In this document: piece by piece, positions 8,495 to 47,224 of the stretch
Numbering within the stretch: the stretch's first letter is position 1
Layout: each line of letters begins with the position of its first letter
Assembly: GCA_031268995.1 (NCBI GenBank)
Contig: JAIRWK010000064.1
Span: 1-49,612 of the forward strand
DNA: 49,612 bases
Reading direction: 5' to 3'
DNA from: Planctomycetaceae bacterium
GTDB taxonomy: Bacteria > Planctomycetota > Planctomycetia > Pirellulales > Thermoguttaceae
Made by a program: the position numbers and the translations under genes
Notes under the pieces: generated by a model
What the model saw: only the letters and a program-made list of their open reading frames with translations
Databases searched by the model: none
Told to the model about the DNA's origin: nothing

Positions 8495-8552
8495 AAAAAC
8501 ACCTCCCCCCTTCCCTTGTCCCTTTCGTCCTTTTTGTCCTTTTTGTCCCTAA
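8495..8552. repeat. phased GTCC(C)-T-tract block (family F, GTCC subtype)
   Basis: ccttgtccctttcgtcctttttgtcctttttgtccct: GTCC words at ~9-10-nt spacing. Similar blocks at 13355-13440, 23945-24005, 27356-27400 and 31320-31345. Confidence 0.7.
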
Positions 8553-8554
8553 AC

Positions 8555-8657
8555 TATGCTGAAGCTACTTTAAAATTCCTGAAGCTGAACACGCAAGCGC
8601 AACAACGTGAAGCGGTTGTTCAAGGGCGAAGCCTATCGCCCTACCAGCTTCGGTATG
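8555..8657 (+). mobile_element. family-A element, full copy
   Basis: tatgctgaagctactttaaaattcctgaagctgaacacgcaagcgcaacaacgtgaagcgg...cagcttcggtat. Confidence 0.9.
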
Positions 8658-13345: not shown

Positions 13346-13440
13346 AATATCAGAGACACTAGGGACACAAGAGACGCAAAGGACATTGAGGACAAAATAA
13401 ATTGGGGCTGTGTTTTGTCCTTTTTGTCCTTTTTGTCCCT

Positions 13441-13754
13441 CATATCTCTGCTGTTCTTCTGTGTGTTTTTTGTTTTTCTTTTATATTTTTTTTGACGCTT
13501 TTTTTAGGCAGGTTTGGCAATCTTGGAATTCTTTGGACTTTACGATGGCGGCTCCTGATTTTAAGCGGTTTACTACATCATGCCAAAATTCACTTAAAAA
13601 TGTTGCGTGGAATTTTTTTGATCTGGCTGAAATAAATTCGTCTTGAATGTGTTTGAATAATTTTGCCAAACTTAATTTTATCGCCTCCGATACCGAATAC
13701 ACAACCGCCTCGCCACAAATAACCAATACACCCACCCCTAACACAACACCAAAC
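13441..13754 (-). repeat. direct repeat DR-b: displaced copy of the GTPase gene 3' end plus ~35 nt downstream
   Basis: Aligns base for base with 14421-14729 (offset ~975-980, a few substitutions, one small indel). Confidence 0.9.
13481..13744 (-). pseudogene. orphan 3' fragment of the GTPase gene (duplicate of its last ~83 codons)
   Basis: 87-aa ORF ...GVLVICGEAVVYSVSEAIKLSLAKLFKHIQDEFISARSKKFHATFLSEFWHDVVNRLKSGAAIVKSKEFQDCQTCLKKASKKI differs at 3 positions from the C-terminus of ORF 14456-16414. Confidence 0.8.
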
Positions 13755-14423: not shown

Positions 14424-14729
14424 ATCAGTATATTTTTGTGTTTTTTGTTTTTCTCTTATATTTTTTTTGACGCTTTTTTTAGGCAGGTTTGGCAATCTTG
14501 GAATTCTTTGGACTTTGCGATGGCGGATCCTGATTTTAAGCGGTTTACTACATCGTGCCAAAATTCACTTAAAAATGTTGCGTGAAATTTTTTTGATCTG
14601 GCTGAAATAAAATCGTCTTGAATGTGTTTGAATAATTTTGCCAAACTTAATTTTATCGCCTCCGATACCGAATACACAACCGCCTCGCCACAAATAACCA
14701 ATACACCCGCCGCCAACACGACACCAAAC
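14421..14729 (-). repeat. direct repeat DR-a (functional 3' end of the GTPase gene plus spacer)
   Basis: Partner of 13441-13754. Confidence 0.9.
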
Positions 14730-16414
14730 CATTGCCCCGTAATTTTTGAACCAATAATAAGACCGCCAACAATAAATAAAACCGTAAACACCGGTCGCAC
14801 CAACGTTACCACCAAATCCAACAACTTAATCAATCCCACCCAAACCAAATTTTTCGCCGCCCATGTTGTTAAATTTTGCCTCAACGCATTGTCAAAATTG
14901 ACCTCCACCGGATCCAACTCACTAAGCACAACCTTTGCCCGCGCCAAAATCTCAACACGCCTACCGCCACTAACTAAACTCAACATCTCACGCCTCAACA
15001 CCAAATTGTCCGTCTCCGCAAGACGCTCAATATAACCAAAAATCGTCTCAATAAAACCAACAACAACACCCTCCTCACTCTCCCTCAAATATCGTAACAA
15101 ATTATCTTGACCATAACCCGTATTGCCGACACGTGAAAATAATTTTTGCACAATAACTCCCCACAACTTGCTAAACGGATAAACTAACTTGCCGCCAAGT
15201 ACACGATAAACATCATTTATTCTACGCAACCAAACCGCACGCTTTGCCTCATTCCACCACGCCCACATCCCGCCGGCAAGCACCGAAATGGGCATCGCCG
15301 GTAACTCCATCTCCAACTTGTCATCAATACCCTCAATCGCCGCCAACGCCGCCCCAAATTGATTCGACGCAACCTCCACCCGCCGCAAAAAAGACGGTAA
15401 ACCATTCGACTCGTCAATAATCACTCGAATAGCACCAATAAGCGTTTGAGATTTGATCCGGTCAAAATGTAACTCCGTAAATATCCGACGCAAATCCACC
15501 ATCGCCAATACAGATTGCGGGAGTTGCTCTTGAACGAATGTTTCGTGTTGTTGCGATTGCTTGTTCAGATTCAAAGTAGATTTAGTATCATTGATCTCTT
15601 CAGTACCCTTCCCGTCTTGCGGCAATTGATAAAACGGCAACCGTAATTCCGCTGCCTTGCCCCCGTCAAACGGCGCAGCAAGCACAGCAATCGGAACACA
15701 ACCAGTTTCATCACAAAATTGCTTCAACCAAATCGTAATATGCTCAACATCACGCTCAATATCAACCATATTAAAAATCACAATAACAGGTTTTGCCGCC
15801 TCCGCAGCTTCGCGGAAAAAACGGCGAACCGCCGCATCGTTGTATTTTTGACTTGTAAGCACGGCAATTATCACATCCGCCGCATTGCGCACTCCACGCG
15901 CCCGCACCCAATTCAACTCGTTGTCCGAATCAATATCCGGCGTGTCAAAAATCAAAAGCCGCTCCTCAAGACGATTGTCAACCTTCCAAAAAAGTTGATG
16001 TTCACGGCAAGATTCAAGAGGTTGCTCCGACCGCGACCACTCAACAAGATTAAAATGACAAAAATTACGCCGCAAAATATCCAAAGAATTCGGAATCGAA
16101 CCCGACACAACACAAACAGGATGCTTCGTACCCGATGCCCGATGGTCAACTCCACTGCAATAATTGCCGACAAGATGATTAAATATTACAGACTTGCCCG
16201 TATTGGTACCGCCCATCACAGAAATAATTAAATAAGCACGATCACCAACTTGCGGTAATAACTTGCACGAAAGCAAATCATACCAATCCTCACCCTCCGC
16301 CAACGAAACACCACACGCACCAACTACCCGAATAAGTTGACCAACCACACGATCAATCTCAATCGCTAATTCCGAAAGCTCCCCAAATAAACCCACTCTA
16401 TCAATCAAATCCAT
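14456..16414 (-). CDS. membrane-anchored P-loop GTPase (dynamin/Era-like G domain, C-terminal TM hairpin)
   Basis: G1 GGTNTGKS, G3 DTPD, G4-like NMVD. C-terminal hydrophobic helices (LVWVGLIKLLDLVVTLV, FTVLFIVGGLIIG, VVLAAGVLVICGEAVV). Contains a repeat-derived linker (see 15495-15589). Confidence 0.7.
   Translation of the reverse strand: MDLIDRVGLFGELSELAIEIDRVVGQLIRVVGACGVSLAEGEDWYDLLSCKLLPQVGDRAYLIISVMGGTNTGKSVIFNHLVGNYCSGVDHRASGTKHPVCVVSGSIPNSLDILRRNFCHFNLVEWSRSEQPLESCREHQLFWKVDNRLEERLLIFDTPDIDSDNELNWVRARGVRNAADVIIAVLTSQKYNDAAVRRFFREAAEAAKPVIVIFNMVDIERDVEHITIWLKQFCDETGCVPIAVLAAPFDGGKAAELRLPFYQLPQDGKGTEEINDTKSTLNLNKQSQQHETFVQEQLPQSVLAMVDLRRIFTELHFDRIKSQTLIGAIRVIIDESNGLPSFLRRVEVASNQFGAALAAIEGIDDKLEMELPAMPISVLAGGMWAWWNEAKRAVWLRRINDVYRVLGGKLVYPFSKLWGVIVQKLFSRVGNTGYGQDNLLRYLRESEEGVVVGFIETIFGYIERLAETDNLVLRREMLSLVSGGRRVEILARAKVVLSELDPVEVNFDNALRQNLTTWAAKNLVWVGLIKLLDLVVTLVRPVFTVLFIVGGLIIGSKITGQWFGVVLAAGVLVICGEAVVYSVSEAIKLSLAKLFKHIQDDFISARSKKFHATFLSEFWHDVVNRLKSGSAIAKSKEFQDCQTCLKKASKKI
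15495..15589 (-). mobile_element. diverged family-A element embedded in frame in the GTPase CDS
   Basis: Core cttgaacgaatgtttcgtgttgttgcgattgcttgttcagattcaaa matches the family-A consensus at 36 of 47 hand-aligned positions. Translated as LNLNKQSQQHETFVQEQ, parallel to LKLNTQAQQREAVVQGR read from intergenic copies. Confidence 0.65.
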
Positions 16415-19288: not shown

Positions 19289-19317
19289 TATATCTATTAA
19301 AGGAAGTTTTATCTTTT

Positions 19318-19421
19318 TATACCGAAGCCGGTATGGGCGGTAGGCTTCGCCCATGAACAACCGCTTCACGTTGTTGCGTTTGCTTGTTCAGCCTCAGGAA
19401 TTTCAAAACAGCCTGAGCGTA
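19318..19421 (-). mobile_element. family-A element, full copy
   Basis: tataccgaagccggtatgggcggtaggcttcgcccatgaacaaccgcttcacg...gcctgagcgta. Confidence 0.9.
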
Positions 19422-19424
19422 ATG

Positions 19425-19760
19425 GACAAAAGGGGATTTTTAACACGAAAGGTACAAAACAAAAGCGGGAATGGGACTTCCGTTCCTGAGAACGGAGCTT
19501 TCATTCCCGAAAATGGAGCTTTCATTCCTGAGAATGGAGCTTTCATTCCCGAGAACGGAGCTTTCATTCCCGAAAATGGAGCTTTCATTCCCGATGATTT
19601 TTCCTCCAGACTCTAAAATTTTCTCCACGCACCAAAAATTCCCCTTTTCGTATTTTTAGTCCTTTTTGTGCCTTTGGTGTTCAAAATCCCTCTTTTCGTA
19701 TCTTTCGTCTTTTTCGTACCTTTAGTGTAAAAAATTTCCCCCTTCGTGATTAAACGAAAT
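19425..19760 (+). repeat. family-H dispersed repeat (carries the expanded 21-bp array and T-tract blocks)
   Basis: Reverse-complement relationship to 47395-47617 (shared cgaaaggtacaaaacaaaagc, ggagctttcattccc, cagactctaaa). Confidence 0.65.
19473..19598. repeat. 21-bp tandem repeat, 6 units (GGAGCTTTCATTCCCGAAAAT)
   Basis: Units start at 19473 (degenerate), 19494, 19515, 19536, 19557 and 19578. Open in several frames on both strands, which indicates a non-coding repeat. Confidence 0.9.
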
Positions 19761-23914: not shown

Positions 23915-24049
23915 CTACGTCCTTTGCATTCACCCAATCGGAATAAGATTTCACATGTCCCTACTGTCCTTTATGCCTTTCACGTCCTTTGTGTCCCTTT
24001 TGAATAATTACCCTAAATAGTATAAAAAATAGATAGAAAAATTTTAATT

Positions 24050-27355: not shown

Positions 27356-27604
27356 ACCGTTTACTTTGTCCCTTATGTCCTTTGTGTCCTTCATATCCTT
27401 CAAAAATATCACAAAAAAAAATAAAAACTATTTGCGCAATCAAGAGTGCAATACGCTTGAGAAAAATCGGGTATATTGTAACTCTTGGCGATTACAATAA
27501 AATATTGCCCTTTGATGAAACGCCCATTGTTGTATGGGGCGTTTATGCAGCGACTGGTATTGGCGAAGCGTACCAAACCAAATTTAACCAAAATTTAAAC
27601 TAAA

Positions 27605-31310: not shown

Positions 31311-31349
31311 CCGGTAAGGCATTGTCCCTCATATCCTTTTTACCCCTTA

Positions 31350-31463
31350 TATACTCATCGCACTATGAAATTCAGTTTTTATTTTTTTGGCAGGATTTTA
31401 TTATATCCTGACGATCCTGTTATCCTGTCTTAAAAAAATTAATTTCATAGTAGCTACGGTATA
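31350..31463 (+). mobile_element. family-C ~115-125-bp palindromic element
   Basis: tatactcatcgcactatgaaattcagttttt...caggat...atcctg...aaaaaattaatttcatagtagctacggtata. The termini resemble the family-A TIR. Confidence 0.75.
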
Positions 31464-31487
31464 AAAACATCGCCCAATTTCAAATTG

Positions 31488-31590
31488 TATACCGCAGCCG
31501 GTAAGGCAATAGGCTTCGCCCATGAACAACCGCTTCACGTTGTTACGCTTGCGTGTCCAGCTTCGGGAATTTTAAAACAGCTTCAGTATA
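31488..31590 (-). mobile_element. family-A element, full copy, abutting the dinG-fragment ATG
   Basis: tataccgcagccggtaaggcaataggcttcgcccatgaacaaccgcttcacg...cagcttcagtata|atg. Confidence 0.9.
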
Positions 31591-32289
31591 ATGTCTGATT
31601 CGTTTACATTTTTTAAGACGCAAATAGGGATGTCTGTAATTGACACGTTGCAGCTTGGGAGTCCGTTTAATTATTTTGAGCAAGTTACGCTTGTGATTGT
31701 GCGTGATGCGCCGTTACCTGATTCGCGTGAGGATATTTTGCGTTCTTATTATGTTGCGGCGATTCGGAAATATCTTGCGGAGACGGGCGGCGGTGCGTTT
31801 GTGCTTTTTACTTCGTATAGTTTGCTCAAACGCACGGCATCTGATTTGACATCGTGGCTTGTTGAACGTGAAATGCCGATATTGGTTCAAGGCGATGGTG
31901 TTCCGCGAAACGAAATGATTCGCCAATTCAAAAATTCAAACCGTGCTGTTTTATTTGGAACGGATAGTTTTTGGCAAGGTGTGGATGTACCTGGTGATTC
32001 GCTCAGAAATGTAATCATTACGAGGCTTCCTTTTCTAGTGCCAAATCAACCTGTTGTTGAAGCTAAAATTGAATCTATAAAAAATCGGGGCGGCAATCCC
32101 TTCAACGAATACCAATTGCCAACCGCAATCCTAAAATTTAAACAAGGCTTTGGCAGATTAGTTAGGACAAAATCGGATCGCGGACTGGTAGTTGTACTTG
32201 ACCCTAGAATACATGCAAAATCTTACGGCAAAAATTTCATAAAAGCCCTGCCGCAATGCAAAACCAGATTCGATCAAACAACAGACTAA
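31591..32289 (+). pseudogene. dinG: DinG/Rad3-family helicase, C-terminal (helicase_C_2) fragment only
   Basis: LGSPFNYFEQV...VLFTSYSLL...VLFGTDSFWQGVDVPGDSLRNVIITRLPF...KQGFGRLVRTKSDRGLVVVLDPRI covers only motor domain 2. The frame opens at 31576 inside a family-A repeat, and the ATG abuts the repeat end. Confidence 0.6.
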
Positions 32290-33193: not shown

Positions 33194-36100
33194 GTGGGTG
33201 TGTTCATTGATTCTAACAATACTAAATATTATCTCAGTGGTGATACGTATGGTGATGATAGTGGTACAGACTATGCTTCCAGCAATATTGGGTTAAGTAG
33301 CGGCGGTATTACTCTTACTTCTGCTGAAAAAGCGCAGCTTGGTGCGATTTTCTCGAATGACAAAAGTTTGAACTTCGACTTTGGTACAAGCTCCATTTCT
33401 GTTATAAATTCATCTGAAACTGGGGCATTGACGGCGGGATTTGGTTATGTAAATACTGATGCTTTTGGCGGTACTCTTAACGCAACCGGCGCAAGTGGTG
33501 AAGAGACTCCTGAGTATTCCGTTACGGCTTCTGGCGGTTCTGCGTTTGGTTTTGTGTTTGCCAAAGGGACTAGCGTTCTAAGCAGCGGTGTTGCGAATTT
33601 ATCAAATGCAACAATTGATCTTGTCGGAAGTGGAGCAACGATTACTGTTTCAAATTCAGGTGACGACAGCAATTCGTTTGGTTTTGTTGCCGGTGATTTG
33701 AAAAAATCGACAATAAAACTTGGTGAGATTACGTCCCAAATTACCGGTACTGGCGGCGATGAAACGAGTTTGATTCATGGATTTATTGCGGGTGATGTTA
33801 GCAAAAATAGTAAGATTGCACTTTTAGATGTTACCGCTAAAACAACCTGTCAAGCCACAAGTGGTAATGTTTTGGCGGTTGAGTTAAAAGAAATTAGAGG
33901 TTGTGTTGAAACAGGGAATATTGTTGCAATTGCCAACTCTGGTGATGCAACAGGATTTTCCGCATTGGCAATTTTAGGAAAAGTAAAATTGGGGGACATT
34001 AATGTAACTACAACAACAAGTGGTTCGGCACAAGGTGTTGTTATTGGTCGTCATGCCGAATTTGACGTGCCAGAATCTCCATCAGCTAATTCCGCAAAAA
34101 TTTCAGGTCATATCAATGTTGGTGATATTGTAATAAATTCTGTCGGCAACGGAACGGGATTTTTTATTCGCCACGATATTACTAATGCGAGTCAGTGGAA
34201 GAACAATCTGCCGTTGCCGATTGTTCTCTCTGGTAAAGTCGAACTCGGTAAAATTAACATAAAGTCACAAAATCATGCAATTGGTTTCCTCATAAGTAAT
34301 GGTAATTATGCCTCATCAATTAATGCACCTGAAATCACTGGTACTGGTACTGCTACTGCTAATGTTACGTTTGGGGACGACATTGCAGTAGTAAGTACCG
34401 GTACTGGAACCGGAGTGGCGATAGGAATTTCTCTCGGAGATTTTACCGGTGACCCAAAGGCGGATCTTGCCTCTGCCCGAAGTGGTAGTATTGTTTTAAA
34501 AGGCGATATTACGGCTACATCCGCGAACGATTACGCACTTGGTATTCACGCCGGACAATTGGAAAGTCTTGAAGTCAATACGAATATTTCAGCGGAAACA
34601 AGTAAAAATAATGTCAATTATTATGCTTACGGCATTTACACTCGCGGATACACAGAAGGTGCTAGTAATTCTGATGTGACTAAAGATAAAAATAGCGTAA
34701 TCAGTATCACAGGCGGTTCAATTTTTGCAACAGCAACCAGCGCAGCAACCGCCGCCAGTATCATAATGGATTCGACATGTGACGATGTTGTCAATATCGA
34801 TGCCGGAACAACAAGTACAGCGTGGACCAATAATGACGGTACAAATGATCGAGCGTTTACGTTGATCGGCGTGGAAACATTGAATGTCAAGCGAGATACC
34901 CAATTGGTAGCCGGTAGTAAACGCGGAACCGCGACCGTTGCCGACAAAGTTGCGACTACGAATGTTGATGAAGATAAAACGCTTTCAGTTTACGACACAT
35001 TCTTCAACGGCGGCTCACAGAAAAAGATAGGCAAAGGAACTATCTCTATCATAAGAGACGATAGTAGTACTGGTACAGGAACTTTATCGAAACTCGAAAT
35101 CGCCGGAGGAATTTTTGAGTTAATAGGAAGTACAAAAAATGCCAAAACTACGCTTCTCTTTGCTGAGGATAGTTCAAATGCCCAAGACATTATCAAAATT
35201 GGTGGAGGCGCAACATTGAAAATTTCAGGTGAGAATGTTGCTTTAATCAATGTAGCACAGGTAGCTGCATACTTAGATTTTACGAACGAACAAGCCATTT
35301 ATGAGACAAATCCACATCTTAACATGACGGTTGACGGCGGAACAGTTGAAGTGATCGGTGCAGAAAGTTTATATGCAGCCGGTCTCAATGTTTTCATCGG
35401 TAACAGCGGCGCAATAATTAGTGTTACAAATAAAGAGGAGGAGTCCTCAAGAGTTGTTGTTAGCGATATTGCGGCAACTACAAGTGCAACCACTCCTAAT
35501 TTGACGAAAACTGGTAACGGAAAACTGGAAATTCTGTACGGTTTTGATCTCGAAAAAGGAACAATTAATGTCAACGGAGGAACTTTCGAATTTAATAACA
35601 GCAGTGTTAATACTACACCCTTCACAACTTCTGCTAAAGTCAAAAGTATTGTTGTTGACGGAGAAGATGCTGTTCTTGATCTTAAAGCATACTCTTATGT
35701 TACAGTTCATGAAACCAATGAAGCCGCTTTGACAATTAAAGACGGGGGTACGGCAAAAGTCGATGTTTTATCAAGACTTGTTAATAGCACGTGGGATACC
35801 ACAGCAAGTCCCGTATTTAATGTTGCAATTAACGGTGGAACTCTTGAAGTTTACGATGGATCAAAATTGGCTTCAGAGACGAATTTTACTGAAGACCAAG
35901 TTGCCACTCTATTGAACCCGCATTTAGCTGGTGTTACAACAACCGTAACAAATACGGCAACAATCAATGTCGGTGAAGGTATTACTTTCGATCCAGGTGT
36001 TGTGAAAACCAAAACAAACGACAGCACAGCCAGTATAACAAAAATCGGAGACGGAACACTTCGTATTCTATACGATTTTGATTTCGCAGATGGAACAATT

Positions 36101-39100
36101 AATGTCAACGGAGGAACTTTCGAATTTAATAACAACGGAGTTAAAGCTAACCCCGCAACTTCTGCTAAAGTTAAAAGTATCGTTGTTGATGGAGAAAATA
36201 CTGTTCTTGATCTTAAAGCATACTCTTATGTTACAGTTTATGAAACCAGTGAAGCCGCTTTGACAATTAAAAATAATGGTACGGCAAAAGTCGATGTTTT
36301 ATCAAGACTTGTTAATAGCACGTGGGATACCACAGCAAGTCCCGTATTTAATGTTGCAATTAACGGTGGAACTCTTGAAGTTTACAACGGAGAATCTTCG
36401 GATGATACCAATATATTGAACCCGCATTTAGCTGGTGTTACAACAACCGTAACAGATACGGCAACAATCAATGTCGGTGAAGGTATTACTTTCGATCCAG
36501 GTGTTGTGAAAACCGAAGCAAACAACAGTACAGCCAGTATAACAAAAATCGGAGAAGGAACACTTCGTATTCAATACGGTTTTGATCTTGGCGGCGGCAA
36601 TATTGATGTTAAGAATGGAACATTGGCAATCAATCCCGATACAAAAGATCATCCTCTGACAGTTAATGCCAATGTTAAACTGAACGCTAACAATTTAATT
36701 ATCGGCGAAGCCGACGACAATAAGGCGCAATCAATTACCATCGGAAGTATCTGCGGAAGTTCCGAAAGTACAACAATTATTAACGCTGGTGATTCATTGA
36801 TCATCACAAAAGGCAGTACTTACGGCGGAAAAATAACCGGCGGCGGTAATTTAACCGTAGCCAGCGAAACATTGACGTTAAGCAATAAAGATAACAATTA
36901 TTCCGGCACAACAACACTCAACGAAAACGTTAATTTGATAATTTCAAACGGCGGTACTTACAGCGGAAAAATAACCGGTGCCGGTGATTTAACCGTAACC
37001 AGCGGAACATTGACGTTAAGCAGTACAACTAACGATTACTCCGGTACAACAACACTCGGCGGCGAGTTGTCCGTAACCATAGACAGTGCCTTGAGCGCGA
37101 ATAGTAATTACGTTGTCGGAAATAATGGTAAATTGTCAATCAATGATTCCGCACAAACAATCAAGACTCTTAACGGCACAGACGGCGAAGTTAATCTGGG
37201 AACAACCGGTAATTTGACAATTTCAAACGGCGGAAAATTCGACGGAGAATTAACCGGTGGCGGCACTTTAACCATATCAGGCGAAGAATTGACCTTGACC
37301 GGAAGTTATTCCAAAACAGCTAAATTCGCCGTCAATACCGGAACTCTTTTACTTGATCATTCAACATCTGAAGAATCTAAAAATATTACGTTTAGTAATT
37401 CATTGACCGGAAGCGGAACACTTGCAGTTAAGTTGAATGCTTTAACCGATACGTTTACTTTAGGAACAGATACCATAGATACCGGTTTTAGCGGAACCAT
37501 TGAAATGAAAAATGGAATTTTTGCAACAAGCAATTTCACACAATTGACAAACGTAGGACTCAAATTAAACAGCGATTCAAGCACTACAATTGACGAGAAT
37601 CTATCCATTTCAAAATTAACCCTCAACGGCGGACAAATCAATTTTGTCGCGGCTCCCGTAACTCCAACCGCGAAATTAACCGTTACCGATCTTGTGATTG
37701 GTAACGACGGCGGAATTATAGGTGTTGATCAAACATTAGACATTGTTACGACGAATACACCACCGTCAACACAAAATATTTTCGATTATTGGAATGATGA
37801 CGCTAATTACCAACAACAACTTATTGCTGTTGAAGGTACCATCACCAGAGACGGAATCATCACACCTGATTCGGTCGCCAGCATCGAACAATCACGAAAT
37901 CTTGTCAACGGCGGTGTCGCAAAATTTAATTACAATGTCAGTGTCGATAGCGATAGCTCTTCCGCCCAAAAAGGAATCTATCTCGGTTACGGTTTGGTTG
38001 AAATAGAGAGTCCAGCGGATAAGACCGTTACACTAGATACGACAAACGCAACCAATCCGAAATTGACCGCGAAATTAACCGGAAACGGCGGTTTCAAATT
38101 CATCGGAACCGGCAGCACGTCGCAAGTTGAAATCGGTAACAGTGACAGCAATTATTCCGGTAACACTGAAATTGATAATCTGAAAATAAAAATGCTTGAC
38201 GATAAAGCATTCGGAACAGTCGCCAATTTATCACTCACAAATAACGCCGAACTTGATATGAATTCCAAGACCGCAAGCGTTGCACAACTTAACGGAGATA
38301 ATGATACAAAAATTAATGTCGGTGATTTAACCGTTACAAACGGCGGCAATTTTGCCGGACAATTAACCGGCATCGACAGTAATTTAACCATAACTGGCGG
38401 AACATTGGCATTAAGCAATAATGCTAACGATTATTCCGGTACAACAACACTCAACGGCGGTAATTTGTCCGCAACCGTAACCAATGCCTTGAGCGCGAAT
38501 AGTGATTACGTTGTCAATGGTGGTAAATTGTCAATCAATAATTTCGCACAAACAATCAAGACTCTTAACGGCACAGGCGGCGAAGTTAATCTTGGAACTG
38601 GTAGTTTGACAATTTCAAACGGCGGAGCCTTCAGCGGAAAATTTGCCGGTAGCGGTAATTTAACCGTAGATGCCGGAACATTGAACTTGACCCAAAACTA
38701 TTTCGCAACCGGCGGCGTTACCATAAACTCCAATGGAACACTTTTGCTCAATCCATCAACCGGAAATGGTACGTTTAATAATTTATTGACCGGAAGCGGA
38801 AAACTTGCGGTTGGTTTGAGTGATACCGACAAGACATTCACTTTAGGAGCAGGTGCCGGAACTGGTTTTACCGGAACTCTTGAGATGAACAAAGGAATTT
38901 TTGCAACAAGCGGTTTCTCACAATTGATAAACGTAACCCTCAAATTAAATGATAATTCACGAATCAAAATCGACAGCAATCTGTCCGTTGCAAATTTAAC
39001 CCTCAACGGCGGACAAATCGAATTTGCCGCCAATCCATTAACTCCAACCACAAAATTAACGGTTGCGAATTTGAATATTGCAAACGGCGGAAAAATAAAG

Positions 39101-41338
39101 ATTGATAATACCGCCAATAATATAAATACGTCATTATCATCGACTCAGAATATTTTTGATTATCACAGTGATCCAGTTAATTATCAGCAACAACTCGTCG
39201 CAGTTACAAACCAAATCACCGGAAGCGGAACCATCACACTCGATCCGTCCGCCAACACCGGACAAGAACGAAATCTTGTCGGCGGCGGTGTCGCAAAATT
39301 TAATTACAATGTCAATGTCGATAGCTCTTCCGCCAACAAAGGAATCTATCTCGGTTACGGTTTGGTTGAAATAGATAATCAAGGAAATACCGTTACATTA
39401 AATACAGCAGGCGCAACCAATCCGAAATTGACCGCGAAATTAACCGGAAACGGCGGTTTCAAATTCATCGGAACCGGCATCACGTCGCTGGTTGAAATCG
39501 GTAACAGTACCAGCAATTATTCCGGCAACACTGAAATTGATAACATGAAAATAAAATTGACAGACAATAACGCCTTCGGACAAACATCAAATTTATTGCT
39601 CACAAATAACGCCAAACTCGATATGGATTCTCACGCCGTAACCGTGAAACAACTTGACGGAAGTAATACTACAACAATTACTAACGCTAACTTAACAATC
39701 ACAAACGGCGGTAACTTCGGCGGACAATTAACCGGTAACAATAATTTAACCTTGACCGGCGGCGAATTAACCTTGACCGGAAATAACTCAACCGCAACCG
39801 GAACATTTAACCAAACCGGCGGTATCATGAATTTACAAAATACTTGGGGCGGAAATTATGCTCTCGGAAATAGCGCAACATTAAATTTGTCCAACTCCTC
39901 ACAAATCGGCGGTAACATAAATCTCGCCGGTATAGTTGATATAACAAATGGAAAATTAAATGTTGTCGGAGACCTTAATATTGCTGGTGGTTCGGTTGTG
40001 AAAATGACTATCGATGAAAATAAAATTACCGCGAATAAAATAACTATAGATGATAACGCCCAAATAATATTGACCGCAATTCCTAACGGTACAATAAATA
40101 ACGTTATCGTTTCAACTACACCATTCACAGAAGAACAAATCACAAAACTTAACTCCAAATTCACATTGACCGACAAATTACTTGTGTCATTGAAACCGGT
40201 CTATAGTGCCGACTACAAAAAAATGGGCTTCGAAAGCAGCTCACAATCCACCATCGCTTACACCGCCAATAGTAACTTCAGCGGTAACCAAACCCAAATC
40301 GCCGGCTTGCTCGACGATTGCCCAGACGTACAAACGATATTGCAATCGCTCGATACTCGCGAACAGCTCGAAGGTTTGGTCAAAAGTATGCTTGCGCCGG
40401 AGCTTGCGGCAGACGCTCGCGATTTAGCTTTGAATAGCCCATACGTCCACGTCTCCAATCACCTCAATAATTTGTCCGCCACTCCCGCCAATAATACTCC
40501 CAACACACTATTTCGCGGACAATCCCCACACAACAACATCGCCACACAAAGTAACCACGAATTTTGGTTTGAAGGCTACTATCAAAGCGGCAAAACAAAC
40601 GGCGACTCAAACGCACTAGGCTACAAAACATCACGCGGCGGAATGATGGTCGGTGTTGATAAATATTTCGGCGATGGGTTGTTGACGGGGTTGGTTTTCG
40701 GTTACGGCAATCCGCGAACTTATAACTCAACTGGTAAAATTGAAGCCGACGACTACACGTTCGGCGTTTACGCAAAACTAAAAATATTCGGCATCTACGC
40801 CAACACTTTCTTGGGATACGGAAGCCAAAATTACCAGTTGCGCCAAAACCAAATTAACCCAACTCAACACACCAAATTTAACGGTGACTCAACATTCGCA
40901 AGTTTAGAATTGTTCAAACCGATCTATTTGCGCAACGATATGTTGGTTGCGCCGCTAGTTGCAATTGACTTTCAAAAATCATGGTCAGACGGTTTCAATA
41001 CAAACAATATTGTCCCGCTCACCGTCAAAAAAGGTGAAATGGATCAAACGGTCTTGCGACTCGGTGTCAACTCAAATTACAGAAATTGGCGAACACGTTT
41101 ACAATACGGCTACCAAGTTGCGGGCGATTTGTACAGCACCTCCAGAACCTCACTCACCGGCGGCGGTAATAACAGAGTCTTGTCAGGTGTAAATCTCGGT
41201 CGCCATACCTTCAACGCCGGATTCGGCGGCGATTTCCAAATCGGCAATCGCACAAAACTATTCGCCGACTACGACCTCGATCTAGGTGAACGCACCACAA
41301 ATCACACTGGACAGTTCGGGGTTGTCTGCAACTTTTAA
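33194..41338 (+). CDS. giant autotransporter (PATR-repeat passenger plus C-terminal beta-barrel); the frame is open from 33080 through the poly-G
   Basis: Many 'G-x-G-x-LT(V/I)-x-x-G-x-LTL-x-x-x-N-(D/N)YSGTTTL' autotransporter-associated beta-strand repeats. C-terminal ~275 aa (from ~40510) has the autotransporter beta-domain pattern, ending ...GQFGVVCNF. No signal peptide in the tracked ORF. Confidence 0.85.
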   Translation: MGVFIDSNNTKYYLSGDTYGDDSGTDYASSNIGLSSGGITLTSAEKAQLGAIFSNDKSLNFDFGTSSISVINSSETGALTAGFGYVNTDAFGGTLNATGASGEETPEYSVTASGGSAFGFVFAKGTSVLSSGVANLSNATIDLVGSGATITVSNSGDDSNSFGFVAGDLKKSTIKLGEITSQITGTGGDETSLIHGFIAGDVSKNSKIALLDVTAKTTCQATSGNVLAVELKEIRGCVETGNIVAIANSGDATGFSALAILGKVKLGDINVTTTTSGSAQGVVIGRHAEFDVPESPSANSAKISGHINVGDIVINSVGNGTGFFIRHDITNASQWKNNLPLPIVLSGKVELGKINIKSQNHAIGFLISNGNYASSINAPEITGTGTATANVTFGDDIAVVSTGTGTGVAIGISLGDFTGDPKADLASARSGSIVLKGDITATSANDYALGIHAGQLESLEVNTNISAETSKNNVNYYAYGIYTRGYTEGASNSDVTKDKNSVISITGGSIFATATSAATAASIIMDSTCDDVVNIDAGTTSTAWTNNDGTNDRAFTLIGVETLNVKRDTQLVAGSKRGTATVADKVATTNVDEDKTLSVYDTFFNGGSQKKIGKGTISIIRDDSSTGTGTLSKLEIAGGIFELIGSTKNAKTTLLFAEDSSNAQDIIKIGGGATLKISGENVALINVAQVAAYLDFTNEQAIYETNPHLNMTVDGGTVEVIGAESLYAAGLNVFIGNSGAIISVTNKEEESSRVVVSDIAATTSATTPNLTKTGNGKLEILYGFDLEKGTINVNGGTFEFNNSSVNTTPFTTSAKVKSIVVDGEDAVLDLKAYSYVTVHETNEAALTIKDGGTAKVDVLSRLVNSTWDTTASPVFNVAINGGTLEVYDGSKLASETNFTEDQVATLLNPHLAGVTTTVTNTATINVGEGITFDPGVVKTKTNDSTASITKIGDGTLRILYDFDFADGTINVNGGTFEFNNNGVKANPATSAKVKSIVVDGENTVLDLKAYSYVTVYETSEAALTIKNNGTAKVDVLSRLVNSTWDTTASPVFNVAINGGTLEVYNGESSDDTNILNPHLAGVTTTVTDTATINVGEGITFDPGVVKTEANNSTASITKIGEGTLRIQYGFDLGGGNIDVKNGTLAINPDTKDHPLTVNANVKLNANNLIIGEADDNKAQSITIGSICGSSESTTIINAGDSLIITKGSTYGGKITGGGNLTVASETLTLSNKDNNYSGTTTLNENVNLIISNGGTYSGKITGAGDLTVTSGTLTLSSTTNDYSGTTTLGGELSVTIDSALSANSNYVVGNNGKLSINDSAQTIKTLNGTDGEVNLGTTGNLTISNGGKFDGELTGGGTLTISGEELTLTGSYSKTAKFAVNTGTLLLDHSTSEESKNITFSNSLTGSGTLAVKLNALTDTFTLGTDTIDTGFSGTIEMKNGIFATSNFTQLTNVGLKLNSDSSTTIDENLSISKLTLNGGQINFVAAPVTPTAKLTVTDLVIGNDGGIIGVDQTLDIVTTNTPPSTQNIFDYWNDDANYQQQLIAVEGTITRDGIITPDSVASIEQSRNLVNGGVAKFNYNVSVDSDSSSAQKGIYLGYGLVEIESPADKTVTLDTTNATNPKLTAKLTGNGGFKFIGTGSTSQVEIGNSDSNYSGNTEIDNLKIKMLDDKAFGTVANLSLTNNAELDMNSKTASVAQLNGDNDTKINVGDLTVTNGGNFAGQLTGIDSNLTITGGTLALSNNANDYSGTTTLNGGNLSATVTNALSANSDYVVNGGKLSINNFAQTIKTLNGTGGEVNLGTGSLTISNGGAFSGKFAGSGNLTVDAGTLNLTQNYFATGGVTINSNGTLLLNPSTGNGTFNNLLTGSGKLAVGLSDTDKTFTLGAGAGTGFTGTLEMNKGIFATSGFSQLINVTLKLNDNSRIKIDSNLSVANLTLNGGQIEFAANPLTPTTKLTVANLNIANGGKIKIDNTANNINTSLSSTQNIFDYHSDPVNYQQQLVAVTNQITGSGTITLDPSANTGQERNLVGGGVAKFNYNVNVDSSSANKGIYLGYGLVEIDNQGNTVTLNTAGATNPKLTAKLTGNGGFKFIGTGITSLVEIGNSTSNYSGNTEIDNMKIKLTDNNAFGQTSNLLLTNNAKLDMDSHAVTVKQLDGSNTTTITNANLTITNGGNFGGQLTGNNNLTLTGGELTLTGNNSTATGTFNQTGGIMNLQNTWGGNYALGNSATLNLSNSSQIGGNINLAGIVDITNGKLNVVGDLNIAGGSVVKMTIDENKITANKITIDDNAQIILTAIPNGTINNVIVSTTPFTEEQITKLNSKFTLTDKLLVSLKPVYSADYKKMGFESSSQSTIAYTANSNFSGNQTQIAGLLDDCPDVQTILQSLDTREQLEGLVKSMLAPELAADARDLALNSPYVHVSNHLNNLSATPANNTPNTLFRGQSPHNNIATQSNHEFWFEGYYQSGKTNGDSNALGYKTSRGGMMVGVDKYFGDGLLTGLVFGYGNPRTYNSTGKIEADDYTFGVYAKLKIFGIYANTFLGYGSQNYQLRQNQINPTQHTKFNGDSTFASLELFKPIYLRNDMLVAPLVAIDFQKSWSDGFNTNNIVPLTVKKGEMDQTVLRLGVNSNYRNWRTRLQYGYQVAGDLYSTSRTSLTGGGNNRVLSGVNLGRHTFNAGFGGDFQIGNRTKLFADYDLDLGERTTNHTGQFGVVCNF
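35500..36600 (+). repeat. intragenic tandem duplication, period ~505-540 nt, ~2 copies plus a partial third
   Basis: LTKTGNGKLEILYGFDLEKGTINVNGGTFEFNN...NVAINGGTLEVYDG repeats as ITKIGDGTLRILYDFDFADGTINVNGGTFEFNN...NVAINGGTLEVYNG. The DNA is near-identical over long stretches. Confidence 0.85.
37030..39600 (+). repeat. intragenic duplication of a ~1.2-kb module (period ~1.37-1.39 kb)
   Basis: 37031 aacgattactccggtacaacaacactc... parallels 38417 aacgattattccggtacaacaacactc.... 38090-38190 parallels 39455-39560 (GGFKFIGTG...EIGNS.SNYSGNTEIDN.KIK). Confidence 0.85.
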
Positions 41339-41473: not shown

Positions 41474-42925
41474 TTATTGTAACGAAAAATATTGATTGAA
41501 TTCTGTGTTTGAGGTATCGACGCATTTTATTCTTTGGATGGCGGTACGGAAACGAGCGTCGTTTCTGATGGCGTTAAATCTCTGCGAATTGATGAGGTTT
41601 ATTGGTTTGGGCGAAATTAGAATTATGTCGGCACCGGGATCAATTTGCAGTAACGCTTCTAAAATTGCTCTTGGTAAATTGTCTTTGATTTCATGCCTCG
41701 CCGTCGCAAGCCGCCGCAAAACACTCTCAACAAGCGGTAAACAAATCGGTCCCGATAAACTCTCCTCGTCCGGTTTGCTTGTTGCGAAAAATAAATTGCA
41801 ACCGCCGCGCCGTGTCATGTCACAAACTAACGTTGCAGCAAAACTTAACGCAAGCTCAAAATTGCCGGACTCCACTTGATTTGACTCCAACTGCTCATCA
41901 TAAAGATCAAGCAAAACCGCACAATCATAATTTTGTTTTATCTCAAATTGACGGACGAACGGTTGCCCGTGTCTTGCGGACGCTCGCCAATGAATCCATT
42001 TTATCGTGTCGCCAGGTAACCATTGCCTTACACCTAAAAATTCGCCGGTGCCTCTGCTTGGTCTGAATCTGTATCGTTGCCGGTTTATTGCCGCTTCGGT
42101 TCGGCGTGTTTGCCACCTCGACGATAAATGACCAACCTTCGGAAACACATAAAACTCATCACCATTCAACCCATCAGATAAACACATCGAATGCCGAAAA
42201 AAACCAAACGGAAATCGCGTCGAAATTGTCATAGGACCGAATTTATATTTACCACGTTGCGGCAACTTGCCCGCATAACTTTTTTGAATTACACTGTGTT
42301 GCCCAATATACTCAAAATAAACCGCCGGTTCATATACCATTTCCGATACAGATGATAGGTTTTGTCCTTGAACAACCGATTCAAGTTGTTGCGATTCCGC
42401 GTTCAACTTCAAATCAGCTTTATTATAAAATACCATTTCAGACGGATTCTCTCCCTCAACAGATTCGTCGTGTATTGATTGGATTCTATCGCTAACAACA
42501 ACACCCCAACTTCCGGCATTTCTTCGTTTCCGCTGTTTTGTTTTTTTTGCGTTGTTGGGCAAATTTATTCCACCGCCGTTTGGCGTATTTTTGGAATTCA
42601 ATTGCCCTGATTGTCCAGACTCGGAAACGGATTCAAGATTGACATCAGATTTATTGTAACAATTATTATCACAATACTTGCTCAACCCAATATGCACGAT
42701 AAAAGGATCGCCCGCAAAAACACGTTCGGGTAATTTGCGCCTTACACTAACACCACGCAACGAATAACGCCCAACCCAACCAGACGTTGGTAATATAGCA
42801 AACAAAGCCGCCGCTAAAAGCAACATCGGATTAACTTCCCGCACAATTGAACCTATCATAAAAACAATTGTAACAAAAAGAAAAATCACTCCCTCACGGC
42901 TGAATGTCGTTTTGATCTTCATCAT
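41474..42925 (-). CDS. DUF58 (vWA-like) family protein with a long low-complexity/repeat-derived insert
   Basis: Two N-terminal TM helices. GTGEFLGVRQWLPGDTIKWIHWRASARHGQPFVRQFE is the DUF58 signature. ~130-aa insert upstream of it (see 42333-42427). Confidence 0.75.
   Translation of the reverse strand: MMKIKTTFSREGVIFLFVTIVFMIGSIVREVNPMLLLAAALFAILPTSGWVGRYSLRGVSVRRKLPERVFAGDPFIVHIGLSKYCDNNCYNKSDVNLESVSESGQSGQLNSKNTPNGGGINLPNNAKKTKQRKRRNAGSWGVVVSDRIQSIHDESVEGENPSEMVFYNKADLKLNAESQQLESVVQGQNLSSVSEMVYEPAVYFEYIGQHSVIQKSYAGKLPQRGKYKFGPMTISTRFPFGFFRHSMCLSDGLNGDEFYVFPKVGHLSSRWQTRRTEAAINRQRYRFRPSRGTGEFLGVRQWLPGDTIKWIHWRASARHGQPFVRQFEIKQNYDCAVLLDLYDEQLESNQVESGNFELALSFAATLVCDMTRRGGCNLFFATSKPDEESLSGPICLPLVESVLRRLATARHEIKDNLPRAILEALLQIDPGADIILISPKPINLINSQRFNAIRNDARFRTAIQRIKCVDTSNTEFNQYFSLQ
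42333..42427 (-). mobile_element. family-A element embedded in frame in the DUF58 CDS
   Basis: tataccatttccgatacagatgataggttttgtccttgaacaaccgattcaagttgttgcgattccgcgttcaacttcaaatcagctttattata is colinear with the consensus (3 mismatches in the 31-nt core). Translated as LKLNAESQQLESVVQGQNLSS. Bracketed by ataccatttc at 42334-42343 and 42430-42439 (96-nt period). Confidence 0.8.
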
Positions 42926-42987
42926 AAGAAATTTCCAAAAACAATAAACTATTTTTTATACCGAAGCCGGTATGAAATTCGTCTTTT

Positions 42988-43090
42988 TATACCGAAGCTA
43001 CTTTAAAATTTCTGAAGCTGAACACGCAAGCGTAACAACGTGAAGCGGTTGTTCAAGGGCGAAGCCTGTCGCCTTACCGGCTACGGTATA
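42988..43090 (+). mobile_element. family-A element, full copy (preceded by a solo terminus at 42957-42975)
   Basis: tataccgaagctactttaaaatttctgaagctgaacacgcaagcgtaacaacgtgaagcgg...ccggctacggtata. Confidence 0.9.
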
Positions 43091-43328
43091 ACTCATGTTA
43101 CGCATCGGTGATGAGTAACCGATAATCCTGTCCCGCTAGAGACAATATGTTGGTAGAAAATAATGTAAAAAATATTCCGCGCCCCGTATGGGACGCAATG
43201 TGATTACAATTTAACCGTTTGAAATGTCCTCACATTCCGTCCCTAACGGGACGCGAACAATGTTTTACCTTTTTCTATCAATCAACTGAATAATCACCAT
43301 CATTTTCGTATCGTGCGTAACATGAGTT
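43090..43328 (+). mobile_element. family-D ~240-bp element with 15-nt TIRs (AACTCATGTTACGCA) and three GTCCC-loop-GGGAC hairpins
   Basis: Begins aactcatgttacgcatcgg and ends cgtgcgtaacatgagtt. Reverse complement of 47715-47958 over its whole length, with scattered substitutions. Confidence 0.85.
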
Positions 43329-43348
43329 TCTAAAAACTCATTTTAGTC

Positions 43349-43403
43349 CTGTAACGGCAACGTCCCCGCTACCGAAATCGGAAGCGGGACGCTTCCGTTA
43401 CAG
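43349..43403 (+). repeat. family-E GC-rich long hairpin; overlaps the prmC stop codon
   Basis: ctgtaacggcaacgtccccgctaccgaaatcggaagcgggacgcttccgttacag. The arms are complementary. The TAA of prmC (43398-43400, minus strand) lies in the right arm. Confidence 0.8.
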
Positions 43404-44537: not shown

Positions 44538-44540
44538 GAC

Positions 44541-44633
44541 TATACTCAGCTGTTTTAAAGCTGGACACGGAAGCGCAACAACGTGAAGCGGTTGTTCAAG
44601 GGCGAAGCCTATCACCTTACCGGCTACGGTATA
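44541..44633 (+). mobile_element. family-A element, copy with a ~11-nt internal deletion
   Basis: tatactcagctgttttaaagctggacacggaagcgcaacaacgtgaagcgg...ccggctacggtata. Confidence 0.9.
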
Positions 44634-44741
44634 AAACCCGTTCTTGATCGCGAAATGTCAACACACGCGCCTTTAATAGTGTGATAAATATCATTGGCTA
44701 CCAAAGGCGTGTTGTGCTGACATCGATTTGTTGTTGGGAAT

Positions 44742-46760: not shown

Positions 46761-46828
46761 AATGTTTTAATTCAAATGTGAAAAATTGTTTTCGGAAAGA
46801 TTATTTTTCGGAAAACAGAAAATGTTGC

Positions 46829-46931
46829 TATACCGTAGCCGGTAGGGCGATAGGCTTCGCCCTTGAACAACCGCTTCACGTTGTTGCGCTTGCGTGTTCA
46901 GCTTCAGGAATTTTAAAGTAGCTTCAGTATA
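46829..46931 (-). mobile_element. family-A element, full copy
   Basis: tataccgtagccggtagggcgataggcttcgcccttgaacaaccgcttcacg...gtagcttcagtata. Confidence 0.9.
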
Positions 46932-47224
46932 ATAACCGTACCTAACAAACGCCTACGCTGGCATCTCTTTTATAGTTTTTTTGGAATTAACGGACACGAC
47001 CCGCAACCGGCAAGAACAAAAACCAAGAGAGTTGCACTCCCATCGAAAAGTCCCAGCCAAACAATTAACGTCAGTACAACTGACCCGTAACTCTTAATGG
47101 CAATAAGATAGATTATTTTGAGAATATTGCAAGAGATTCACCAGAAATTTTTCAACAAAGACAAAATCACACGTGGAATTTACCGATTTCTACGCTGAAA
47201 TCGCGGTTTTTGCGCGGAATTTGT

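What the first reader, a model, noticed from the sequence alone, without database searches (positions are those of the whole stretch)
42333..42439. Second in-frame family-A insertion, in the DUF58 gene, with an 11-nt flanking direct repeat and an exact 96-nt (32-codon) period
Segment 42333-42427 is colinear with the whole family-A element, including its TATACC terminus. The core has 3 mismatches in 31 nt. The segment lies inside CDS 41474-42925 without breaking the frame. (T/A)ATACCATTTC occurs at 42333-42343 and again at 42429-42439. At protein level, SEMVF...SEMVY bracket the insert, which fits a target-site duplication or a duplicated terminus. The insert sits in the variable region upstream of the conserved DUF58 signature. 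This is younger and clearer evidence than the GTPase case that the element colonises coding sequence.
Basis: seen in the sequence. Interest (0 to 1): 0.8.

Follow-up and report, generated by a model that had tools for sequence, protein, structure and literature searches.

The report
Mobile repeat inserted in-frame in gene
A roughly 95-base copy of a small mobile repeat that litters this planctomycete genome has landed inside a working gene without breaking its reading frame, adding about 32 unconstrained amino acids to a flexible loop; this is known from Rickettsia and a few other bacteria and is seen here in a new bacterial group.

Summary
Window 42333-42427 is a full-length but diverged copy (80% identity to consensus; nhmmer E = 5e-15) of a ~103/104-nt interspersed repeat ("family A"). 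The window holds 22 full and 7 partial copies, about 5% of the sequence. The copy lies in frame inside the DUF58 gene (41474-42925, minus strand).

None of 119 DUF58 homologues has the segment, including the nearest clade (bootstrap 99/100). The host gene is under purifying selection (dN/dS 0.17), while the inserted peptide evolves almost neutrally (0.95). It sits in a loop that varies from 10 to 21 residues in homologues.

A second copy, in a GTPase gene (15495-15589), passes the same orthologue test: 14 of 14 lack 93 nt. It is older (69% identity).

The 10-nt flanking repeat ATACCATTTC, 96 nt apart, is real and unique to this copy. The other 21 copies have no long target-site duplication. 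I could not decide whether it is a true target-site duplication or a duplicated element terminus.

CDS colonisation is rare here: 2 of about 29 copies, and no other long protein among the best 150 of 356 peptide hits. Two stop-free frames is what chance gives.

This is an analogue of Rickettsia palindromic elements in Planctomycetes: solid, but a new member of a known kind.

The parts
42333..42427 (+). Diverged short-form (95-nt) copy of the family-A interspersed repeat, embedded in the DUF58 CDS. It is read on the minus strand as YNKADLKLNAESQQLESVVQGQNLSSVSEMV.
   Evidence: nhmmer E = 5e-15, model positions 5-111. 79.8% identity to consensus. Frame. Secondary structure largely lost: z = -1.4 against -3 for the consensus.
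42333..42343 (+). Left copy of the direct repeat (T)ATACCATTTC. It coincides with the first 11 nt of the element copy and matches the family terminus at TATACC and C11.
42429..42439 (+). Right copy of the direct repeat (A)ATACCATTTC, starting 2 nt beyond the element's right end. It encodes (S)EMVF on the minus strand.
41474..42925 (-). Host gene: a DUF58-family protein of 483 aa. It has two N-terminal helices, a beta-sandwich, and a vWA/MIDAS-like C-terminal half. The gene is intact and under purifying selection.
   Evidence: ORF. Pfam PF01882. 119 homologues. dN/dS 0.17 against P0003. AF2 model and Foldseek.
15495..15589 (+). Older companion case: a short-form family-A copy embedded in frame, in the same orientation and frame, in a GTPase-domain gene. 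The net insert is 93 nt (31 aa).
   Evidence: nhmmer E = 9e-7. 14 of 14 orthologues lack it. Nucleotide-level empty site. 69.1% identity to consensus.
14456..16414 (-). Host gene of the companion case (MMR_HSR1 GTPase-domain protein, 652 aa).
44538..44635 (-). Intergenic family-A copy carrying the same 9-nt gap as the two CDS-embedded copies. It shows that a short form exists outside genes.
   Evidence: nhmmer alignment.
42986..43092 (-). Canonical intergenic family-A copy 61 nt upstream of the DUF58 start codon. A solo terminal hairpin (42955-42974) lies between it and the gene.
46826..46936 (+). Representative canonical copy, 97% identical to consensus. The other full copies are at 2954, 4287, 7635, 8551, 10543, 13237, 19315, 20023, 20166, 21914, 22117, 25343, 27098, 30284, 31485, 47222 and 48982.

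Best explanation
**What it is.** Family A is a non-autonomous, MITE-like interspersed repeat.
- It is 103-104 nt long, with a 95-nt short form.
- It has imperfect terminal inverted repeats, TATACCGAAGCCGG and TATACTCAAGCTGT, which match at 10 of 14 positions.
- It has internal hairpins and TA/TATA-bounded ends.
- It has expanded in this planctomycete lineage.

**What happened.** One short-form copy inserted into the DUF58 gene, in the DNA that codes for a naturally length-variable loop between two beta-strands.

**Why it survived.**
- Its net length is a multiple of three.
- It landed in an orientation and phase without stop codons.
- The loop tolerates extra residues.

**State since then.**
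- It has been carried as a translated passenger.
- The host gene stays under purifying selection, while the 31-35 added residues drift almost neutrally.
- The element's hairpins have eroded.
- It most likely has no function of its own.

**Shown:** homology to the family; absence from all orthologues; an intact frame; the contrast in selection.

**Inferred:** transposition in trans by an unidentified transposase; translation of the insert; its neutrality for the protein.

**The 10-nt repeat ATACCATTTC** is a real duplication tied to the insertion event, but its template is unresolved. My estimates:
1. About 40%: a duplicated element terminus. This means a 105-nt insert into an NPS|YEPA site, as preserved in the nearest relative, perhaps a remnant of a head-to-tail dimer.
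2. About 35%: a genuine 10-11-bp target-site duplication of host SEMV codons by a 5'-truncated copy.
3. About 25%: a 93-nt TA-type insertion, as in the GTPase gene, into a host site that resembled the element's end.
For: **Homology.** HMM E = 5e-15 end to end, and 3 mismatches in the 31-nt core.

**Family properties.**
- 22 full and 7 partial copies in 49.6 kb, both orientations; 20 of the 22 full copies are intergenic.
- The consensus folds better than shuffles, z of about -3.
- TIR match is 10/14.
- There is no Rfam family and no transposase in the window.

**Insertion, not ancestral sequence.**
- 17 of 17 aligned homologues lack the block, and none of the other 119 retrieved homologues matches the peptide profile.
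- The tree is (window,(P0003,P0009)) with 99/100 bootstrap support.
- The nucleotide empty site AAT CCG TCT|TAT GAG CCG is present in P0003.

**Live gene, neutral passenger.**
- Host dN/dS is 0.17; insert against consensus is 0.95.
- Insert dS is 0.30, below the ~0.44 per lineage since the split from P0003.

**Permissive site.**
- The loop is 10-21 aa in 67 homologues.
- In the AF2 model the insert is low-confidence coil between strands 148-151 and 201-207.

**Independent second case.** The GTPase copy has the same short form, orientation and frame, and 14 of 14 orthologues lack exactly 93 nt.

**Lineage expansion.** About 110 kb from relatives holds only 7 copies, and eight contigs have none.
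Against: - No read-level confirmation is available. The contig and the protein are each seen only once.
- No orthologue closer than about 81% identity over gap-free columns exists, so the pre-insertion sequence is inferred, not observed.
- No autonomous partner element was found.
- The mobility mechanism is unknown. Head-to-tail junctions share TA in one case and TATA in another, and are truncated in a third.
- Translation of the insert is inferred from the open frame only.
- The AF2 model is of modest quality (mean pLDDT 64). By construction it has no alignment depth in the insert, so the 'loop' assignment rests mainly on the flanking strands and the length variability.
- Two embedded copies are too few to show any frame bias. 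The chance that both share a frame, given the open-frame frequencies, is about 0.26 by my own calculation.
Confidence: 0.85

Rival explanations
1. The flanking repeat is a classical target-site duplication. A transposase made a staggered 10-11-bp cut in host sequence ...TCN GAA ATG GTA T..., and an 85-86-nt element, truncated at its left end, was pasted in. This is a sub-hypothesis of the main explanation about how the insertion happened.
For: - The repeat is an exact 10 nt at the two boundaries, with a period equal to the insert length.
- Sister-clade orthologues encode S-E-[IL]-M-P-Y at this spot. P0002 reads TCA GAA ATA ATG, so the repeated sequence looks host-like.
- Removing 96 nt gives the loop length of 7 of the 9 closest homologues.
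- A 5'-truncated copy exists in the family, in L008.
Against: - None of the other 21 full copies has a flank repeat beyond chance (4-9 nt), and the GTPase copy has none.
- The left repeat copy sits exactly where the element's own terminus should be, and matches the family consensus at TATACC. The host would have to mimic the element end.
- The two nearest relatives, P0003 and P0009, lack the EMV codons.
Confidence: 0.35
2. The insert has been exapted. The added peptide now contributes a function to the DUF58 protein and to the GTPase, for example an interaction surface, and is kept by selection.
For: - Two unrelated proteins keep the same element in the same frame.
- They share the residues L-x-L-N...S-Q-Q-x-E...V-Q-x-Q.
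- Both stretches have stayed stop-free despite 20-30% divergence.
Against: - dN/dS of the insert against the consensus is 0.95 for the DUF58 copy and 0.69 for the GTPase copy, against 0.17 for the host gene.
- The shared residues are simply those of the family consensus peptide.
- No orthologue has the insert.
- Apart from the window's own DUF58 protein, no long protein appears among the best 150 of 356 peptide-profile hits.
Confidence: 0.07
3. It is an assembly artefact. The metagenome assembler threaded a repeat copy into the gene, or joined two contigs at a repeat.
For: - The contig is from a metagenome, is rich in a 5%-abundant repeat, and is seen only once.
- Repeats are a known cause of misassembly.
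Against: - The embedded copy is unique in sequence. It is about 80% identical to the consensus, and no near-identical copy exists in the window, so there is nothing for an assembler to confuse it with.
- Both flanks continue the same orthologous gene in the same frame.
- A chance in-frame, stop-free artefact occurring twice (DUF58 and GTPase) is improbable.
Confidence: 0.04
4. The segment is ancestral coding sequence that all sampled orthologues lost, or the intergenic family derives from this coding segment.
For: Only that no very close relative is available to show the empty site directly.
Against: - It would need losses in every one of 119 homologues, including both nearest relatives and the sister clade.
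- The intergenic copies are much closer to their own consensus (mostly 88-97%) than the embedded copy is.
- The family also occurs in relatives whose DUF58 gene has no insert: L001 and L008.
Confidence: 0.02

Closest known systems
Rickettsia palindromic elements (RPEs; Ogata et al. 2000, as summarised in PMC10969869, PMC1779305 and PMC3184786)
   Same: - Interspersed palindromic repeats of about 100-150 bp, found both between genes and inside protein-coding genes.
- Inserted in frame, absent from orthologues, and encoding a family-specific peptide.
- Lineage-specific proliferation.
- Inserts judged compatible with the host protein's fold.
   Different: - A different phylum (Planctomycetota), with no sequence relationship claimed or tested.
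- Only 2 of about 29 copies are inside genes here. By contrast, for three of the ten RPE families nearly half the copies are in ORFs (PMC10969869).
- Family A has recognisable terminal inverted repeats and TA/TATA ends.
- This copy has a 10-nt flanking repeat.
Bacterial MITEs with ORF fusions (ERIC, BOX/SPRITE of pneumococcus, Correia elements, cyanobacterial MITEs such as Nezha; reviewed in PMC3184786 and PMC10969869)
   Same: - Small, non-autonomous and structured, with TIRs.
- Mostly intergenic and often co-transcribed.
- Occasionally fused to or inserted within chromosomal reading frames.
- Mobility shown by filled and empty sites.
   Different: - No cognate insertion sequence or transposase has been identified for family A.
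- A target-site duplication is not demonstrated for the family.
- Most reported intragenic MITE insertions disrupt or extend genes, rather than sitting silently inside a conserved one.
REP/BIME elements mobilised by RAYT transposases (GTAG/CGTC-tagged palindromes, PMC3733652)
   Same: - High-copy extragenic palindromes.
- Solo terminal hairpins of family A (for example 42955-42974) resemble single REP units in size.
   Different: - Family A is a ~104-nt composite with three hairpins and TIRs.
- GTAG occurs only in the loop of one subfamily's first hairpin (GAAG in the other).
- No RAYT gene is present in the window.

Membership tests
MITE (miniature inverted-repeat transposable element) | Short (under ~400 bp), multi-copy, interspersed, with no transposase gene | tested here: met
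   103-104 nt. 22 full and 7 partial copies in 49.6 kb, in both orientations. Too short to encode a transposase.
MITE (miniature inverted-repeat transposable element) | Terminal inverted repeats | tested here: met
   TATACCGAAGCCGG against TATACTCAAGCTGT matches at 10 of 14 positions. The repeats are imperfect.
MITE (miniature inverted-repeat transposable element) | Target-site duplication flanking the copies | tested here: inconclusive
   No flank repeat beyond chance in 21 of 22 copies. Head-to-tail junctions share TA or TATA, which is compatible with a 2-4-bp AT-rich duplication hidden in the TATA ends. Only the DUF58 copy has a 10-nt repeat.
MITE (miniature inverted-repeat transposable element) | Evidence of mobility: filled against empty orthologous sites | tested here: met
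   DUF58 site and GTPase site. Copy number differs sharply between relatives.
MITE (miniature inverted-repeat transposable element) | A related autonomous insertion sequence with the same ends | not tested
   No transposase in the window. The rest of the genome was not retrievable. A Transposase_31 gene on L008 lies 2 kb from any copy and was not examined.
RPE-like in-frame 'selfish DNA in protein-coding genes' | Repeat copy inside a conserved CDS, in frame, and absent from orthologues | tested here: met
   Two cases.
RPE-like in-frame 'selfish DNA in protein-coding genes' | Host gene remains functional and the insert sits at a structurally permissive, surface-exposed site | tested here: inconclusive
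   Host dN/dS is 0.17 and the loop length varies from 10 to 21 aa. In the AF2 model the insert lies between two strands, but at pLDDT below 50. No solved homologue exists.
RPE-like in-frame 'selfish DNA in protein-coding genes' | A large share of the family's copies lie within ORFs | tested here: not met
   2 of about 29 copies in the window and 0 of 7 in relatives. The only long protein among the best 150 of 356 peptide hits is the window's own DUF58 protein.
RPE-like in-frame 'selfish DNA in protein-coding genes' | Sequence homology to a described RPE family | not tested
   No RPE profiles were available. No homology is expected across phyla. The resemblance is in behaviour only.
REP/BIME (RAYT-associated) | Palindromic unit of 20-40 bp with a conserved GTAG/CGTC end tag and an associated RAYT gene | tested here: not met
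   The unit is ~104 nt with three hairpins. GTAG is not conserved, since one subfamily has GAAG. No RAYT gene in the window.
IS630/Tc1-mariner-type MITE | TA target duplication at both ends | tested here: inconclusive
   All copies start with TATAC and end with GTATA. One tandem junction shares exactly TA and another shares TATA. The GTPase net insert is 93 nt, which equals 95 minus 2. No empty site for a canonical copy was available.

The most novel reading that the evidence does not exclude
Integration of this element may be guided by similarity between the target and the element's own left terminus.
- At the DUF58 site, the repeated 10-13 nt resembles both the family terminus and the orthologous host sequence.
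- At the GTPase site, the host's conserved GTGGAT stands in for the element's GGTATA end.

That would point to a homology- or microhomology-assisted insertion route, for example from a head-to-tail junction or a single-stranded circle, rather than ordinary cut-and-paste. It would also mean the family can seed new protein loops at predictable sequence motifs across a planctomycete clade.
Probability: 0.1. Interest if true: 0.6.

Novelty: new member of a known kind. Interest (0 to 1): 0.4.

Why it matters
It is a clean, doubly replicated example outside Rickettsia of a mobile repeat adding residues to conserved proteins without killing them. For each insertion, the evidence includes:
- an empty site in the orthologues;
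- a contrast between a constrained host gene and an unconstrained insert.

Practical consequences:
- It flags a high-copy repeat (about 5% of this region) that gene callers turn into hundreds of spurious micro-ORFs in public protein databases.
- The repeat also inflates apparent protein novelty in these MAGs.

Biologically, it gives a small natural experiment on how new loop sequence enters proteins. It does not open a new mechanism or resolve an open question unless the terminus-guided integration idea proves true.

Tried and rejected
**Searches that led nowhere**
- Metagenome scan with the exact core: 0 hits.
- Metagenome scan with a degenerate core: 15 loci, all matching only the pattern itself, so chance hits.
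- Look-up of a micro-ORF hit (P0241): not on record.
- Cluster look-up for sister strains: all members come from this same contig.
- PDB sequence search with the DUF58 alignment: no hit.
- Rfam: no family.
- Habitat: one literature search was unspecific. I therefore make no claim about habitat.

**Ideas considered and rejected**
- The element is 'designed' to be translatable. Two stop-free frames occur in 29% of shuffles, and the open frames differ between copies.
- A significant frame or orientation bias. Two cases cannot show it.
- The 96-nt spacing test as proof of the insert size. Removing 93, 96 or 105 nt all give loop lengths seen in homologues.
- A long TSD as a family property.
- A pseudogene.
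Full report
**Observation**

- A self-BLAST and repeat search show a dense family of ~104-nt repeats in both orientations.
- An HMM built from ten intergenic copies finds 22 full-length and 7 partial copies in the 49.6-kb window, about 5% of the sequence.
- The HMM matches 42332-42429 end to end (model positions 5-111, E = 5e-15) with a single 9-nt gap.
- The 31-nt core differs from the family core at three positions.
- The ORF 41474-42925 (minus strand) is open for 483 codons. It reads the segment as ...NPSEMVF YNKADLKLNAESQQLESVVQGQNLSSV SEMVYEPA....
- The direct repeat is an exact 10 nt (ATACCATTTC, 11 nt with one mismatch), 96 nt apart.
- Repeats that long occur in about 0.5% of random window pairs. 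Measured against this copy's own left end, the match is 10/11 with p of about 0.001.

**The family**

- The consensus is TATACCGAAGCCGGTATGGGCGATAGGCTTCGCCCTTGAACAACCGCTTCACGTTGTTGCGCTTGCGTGTTCAGCTTCGGGAATTTTAAAACAGCTTGAGTATA.
- The ends are imperfect inverted repeats, matching at 10 of 14 positions.
- The consensus folds better than shuffles on both strands, with z of about -3.
- Lengths cluster at 103 nt (10 copies), 104 nt (6) and 95 nt (3).
- Twenty of the 22 full copies are intergenic, many within tens of bases of a stop or start codon.
- No Rfam family matches, and the window has no transposase.
- Copies also occur on contigs of related 'Planctomycetaceae bacterium' MAGs: L001, L005 and L008. 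Eight other related contigs have none. About 110 kb of related DNA holds 7 copies, against 29 in this 49.6-kb window. This points to expansion in this lineage.

**Is it an insertion?**

- The DUF58 protein has 119 retrieved homologues.
- In an alignment of the 17 best-spread homologues, the 32-residue block is unique to the window. A peptide profile of the element finds nothing in any other homologue; the best E-value is 0.56.
- A neighbour-joining tree on 392 gap-free columns gives (window,(P0003,P0009)) with 99/100 bootstrap support. The sister clade is P0002 and P0004-P0008.
- At nucleotide level the nearest relative reads CAA AAT CCG TCT|TAT GAG CCG. The window reads GAG AAT CCG TCT[...]TAT GAA CCG.
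- The refutation condition 'no orthologue lacks the segment' therefore fails decisively.

**Is the gene alive, and is the insert constrained?**

| Comparison | dN/dS | dS |
|---|---|---|
| Host gene, window against P0003 | 0.17 | 0.875 |
| Embedded DUF58 copy against family consensus, same frame | 0.95 | 0.30 |
| Embedded GTPase copy against family consensus | 0.69 | 0.64 |

- The gene is under purifying selection, and the insert is essentially unconstrained.
- Its divergence fits an insertion after the split from P0003 and P0009.
- It is younger than the GTPase insertion. Identities to consensus agree: 79.8% against 69.1%, with most intergenic copies at 88-97%.
- The hairpin structure of the element has largely gone from the embedded copy, with z of about -1.4.

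**Where in the protein?**

- Pfam places the DUF58 signature at residues 299-372.
- An AF2 model (mean pLDDT 64) gives two N-terminal helices, a beta-sandwich and an alpha/beta C-terminal half. Residues 154-194 are low-confidence coil between strands 148-151 and 201-207.
- Foldseek gives weak matches to CARDB/factor-XIII-type sandwiches and to vWA/MIDAS domains.
- There is no solved homologue by sequence.
- The loop between the WG.VV.D[RK]I strand and [YF]EPA is 10-21 residues in 67 homologues and 49 in the window. It is a naturally permissive site.

**The companion case**

- The copy at 15495-15589 lies in a GTPase-domain gene, in the same orientation and frame.
- All 14 aligned orthologues lack exactly 31 residues there.
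- At nucleotide level, orthologues read GAA GTT|GTG GAT TTG, and the window reads GAG ATC[93 nt]GTG GAT TTG.
- Both embedded copies, and the intergenic copy at 44538-44635, carry the same 9-nt gap. A short form therefore exists.
- If the terminal TA is a duplicated target, the short form adds 93 nt and the 104-nt form adds 102 nt, both multiples of three. The commoner 103-nt form would shift the frame. This is inference.

**Frame bias and 'colonisation'**

- The consensus has two stop-free frames of six, which 29% of shuffles equal or exceed.
- Among the 20 intergenic copies, the frame used by the embedded copies is open in 8, and two other frames are open in 7 and 5.
- Two embedded copies sharing a frame is therefore unremarkable.
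- A profile of the encoded peptide, searched against 1.84 billion representative proteins, found 356 hits.
- Of the best 150, all are 45-143-residue micro-ORFs except the window's own DUF58 protein. The micro-ORFs look like gene-caller artefacts over intergenic copies.
- No embedded copy was found in about 110 kb of related contigs.
- In-frame residence in real genes is the exception for this family.

**The flanking repeat**

It is unique to this copy. The other 21 copies have flank repeats of 4-9 nt, within the null. Three readings remain.

(a) A true 10-11-bp TSD of host ...TCN GAA ATG GTA T...
- For: sister-clade orthologues encode SE[IL]MPY here (TCA GAA ATA ATG in P0002).
- For: removing 96 nt gives the loop length of 7 of the 9 closest homologues.
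- Against: it requires a left-truncated element and a host site that mimics the element's terminus.
- Against: it contradicts the rest of the family.

(b) A 105-nt insert made of a full element plus a direct partial copy of its own left end.
- For: the nearest relative shows exactly the corresponding empty site, NPS|YEPA, with a gapless alignment after removal.
- For: head-to-tail pairs, truncated units and solo or partial terminal hairpins are common around these elements.
- Against: no other copy shows this precise arrangement.

(c) A 93-nt TA-type insertion, as in the GTPase gene, into host SEMVFY|EPA.
- For: that host sequence is colinear, codon for codon, with the sister clade's SEIMPY|EPA.
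- Against: the 10-nt identity with the element end is left to coincidence or later conversion.

I put these at about 35%, 40% and 25% for (a), (b) and (c). An empty allele from a close strain would decide between them.

**Comparison with what is known**

- In-frame residence of small repeats in protein genes is established for Rickettsia palindromic elements. It is reported for several other bacterial repeat families (PMC10969869, PMC3184786, PMC1779305).
- Family A behaves like a MITE. It is short, multi-copy and has TIRs, and filled and empty sites are shown. Its TSD and its partner transposase are unresolved.
- These two copies behave like RPE insertions, but the family does not share the RPE habit of frequent ORF residence.
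- My literature searches found no description of such an element in Planctomycetes.
- I rate it a new member of a known kind. It is well supported and moderately interesting.

Noticed in passing
window 42926-43397, compared with L001, L008, L009, L010 and L013: In five related contigs an Imm33-family gene sits directly upstream of DUF58. The window has no Imm33 anywhere (tblastn). The corresponding space holds a family-A copy (42986-43092) and a solo terminal hairpin (42955-42974).
   Followed up: partly
window 8507-8559, 13406-13458, 19639-19730, 23955-23998, 27357-27400, 31322-31356: A second repeat type: short arrays with a 9-nt period (TTGTCCTTT-like). Several lie next to family-A copies (family D6).
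   Followed up: no
window 19448-19615: An intergenic tandem array of a 21-nt unit (GAATGGAGCTTTCATTCCCGA-like, about 8 copies), just downstream of the family-A copy at 19315-19427 (family D13).
   Followed up: no
window 13462-13754 and 14437-14729: A 293-nt direct repeat, 97% identical, 975 nt apart. The second copy overlaps the 3' end of the GTPase-domain gene that carries the other embedded element (family D9).
   Followed up: no
window 31485-31598 and ORF 31591-32289: A 232-aa ORF with only a DinG/XPD-type Helicase_C_2 domain starts inside the right end of a family-A copy. It may be a truncated helicase gene, or a start codon supplied next to the element.
   Followed up: no
window 19315-19427 and ORF 17432-19369: The longest ORF call for this 645-aa protein of unknown family begins with a GTG inside a family-A copy. 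The true start is probably downstream, but an element-encoded N-terminal extension is possible.
   Followed up: no
window 33194-41338: A 2714-aa ORF with long internal repeats (families D7, D8, D10, D15, D17-D19). By eye its C-terminus resembles an autotransporter beta-barrel; this was not tested here. No family-A copy lies inside it.
   Followed up: no
public protein databases: At least 149 representative 'proteins' of 45-143 aa consist essentially of the family-A consensus peptide. They look like gene-calling artefacts over non-coding repeat copies.
   Followed up: partly
L008 6984-7430: A Transposase_31 (YhgA/Rpn-like) gene lies at the contig end in a relative that also carries family-A copies 2 kb away. 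No link between them was tested.
   Followed up: no
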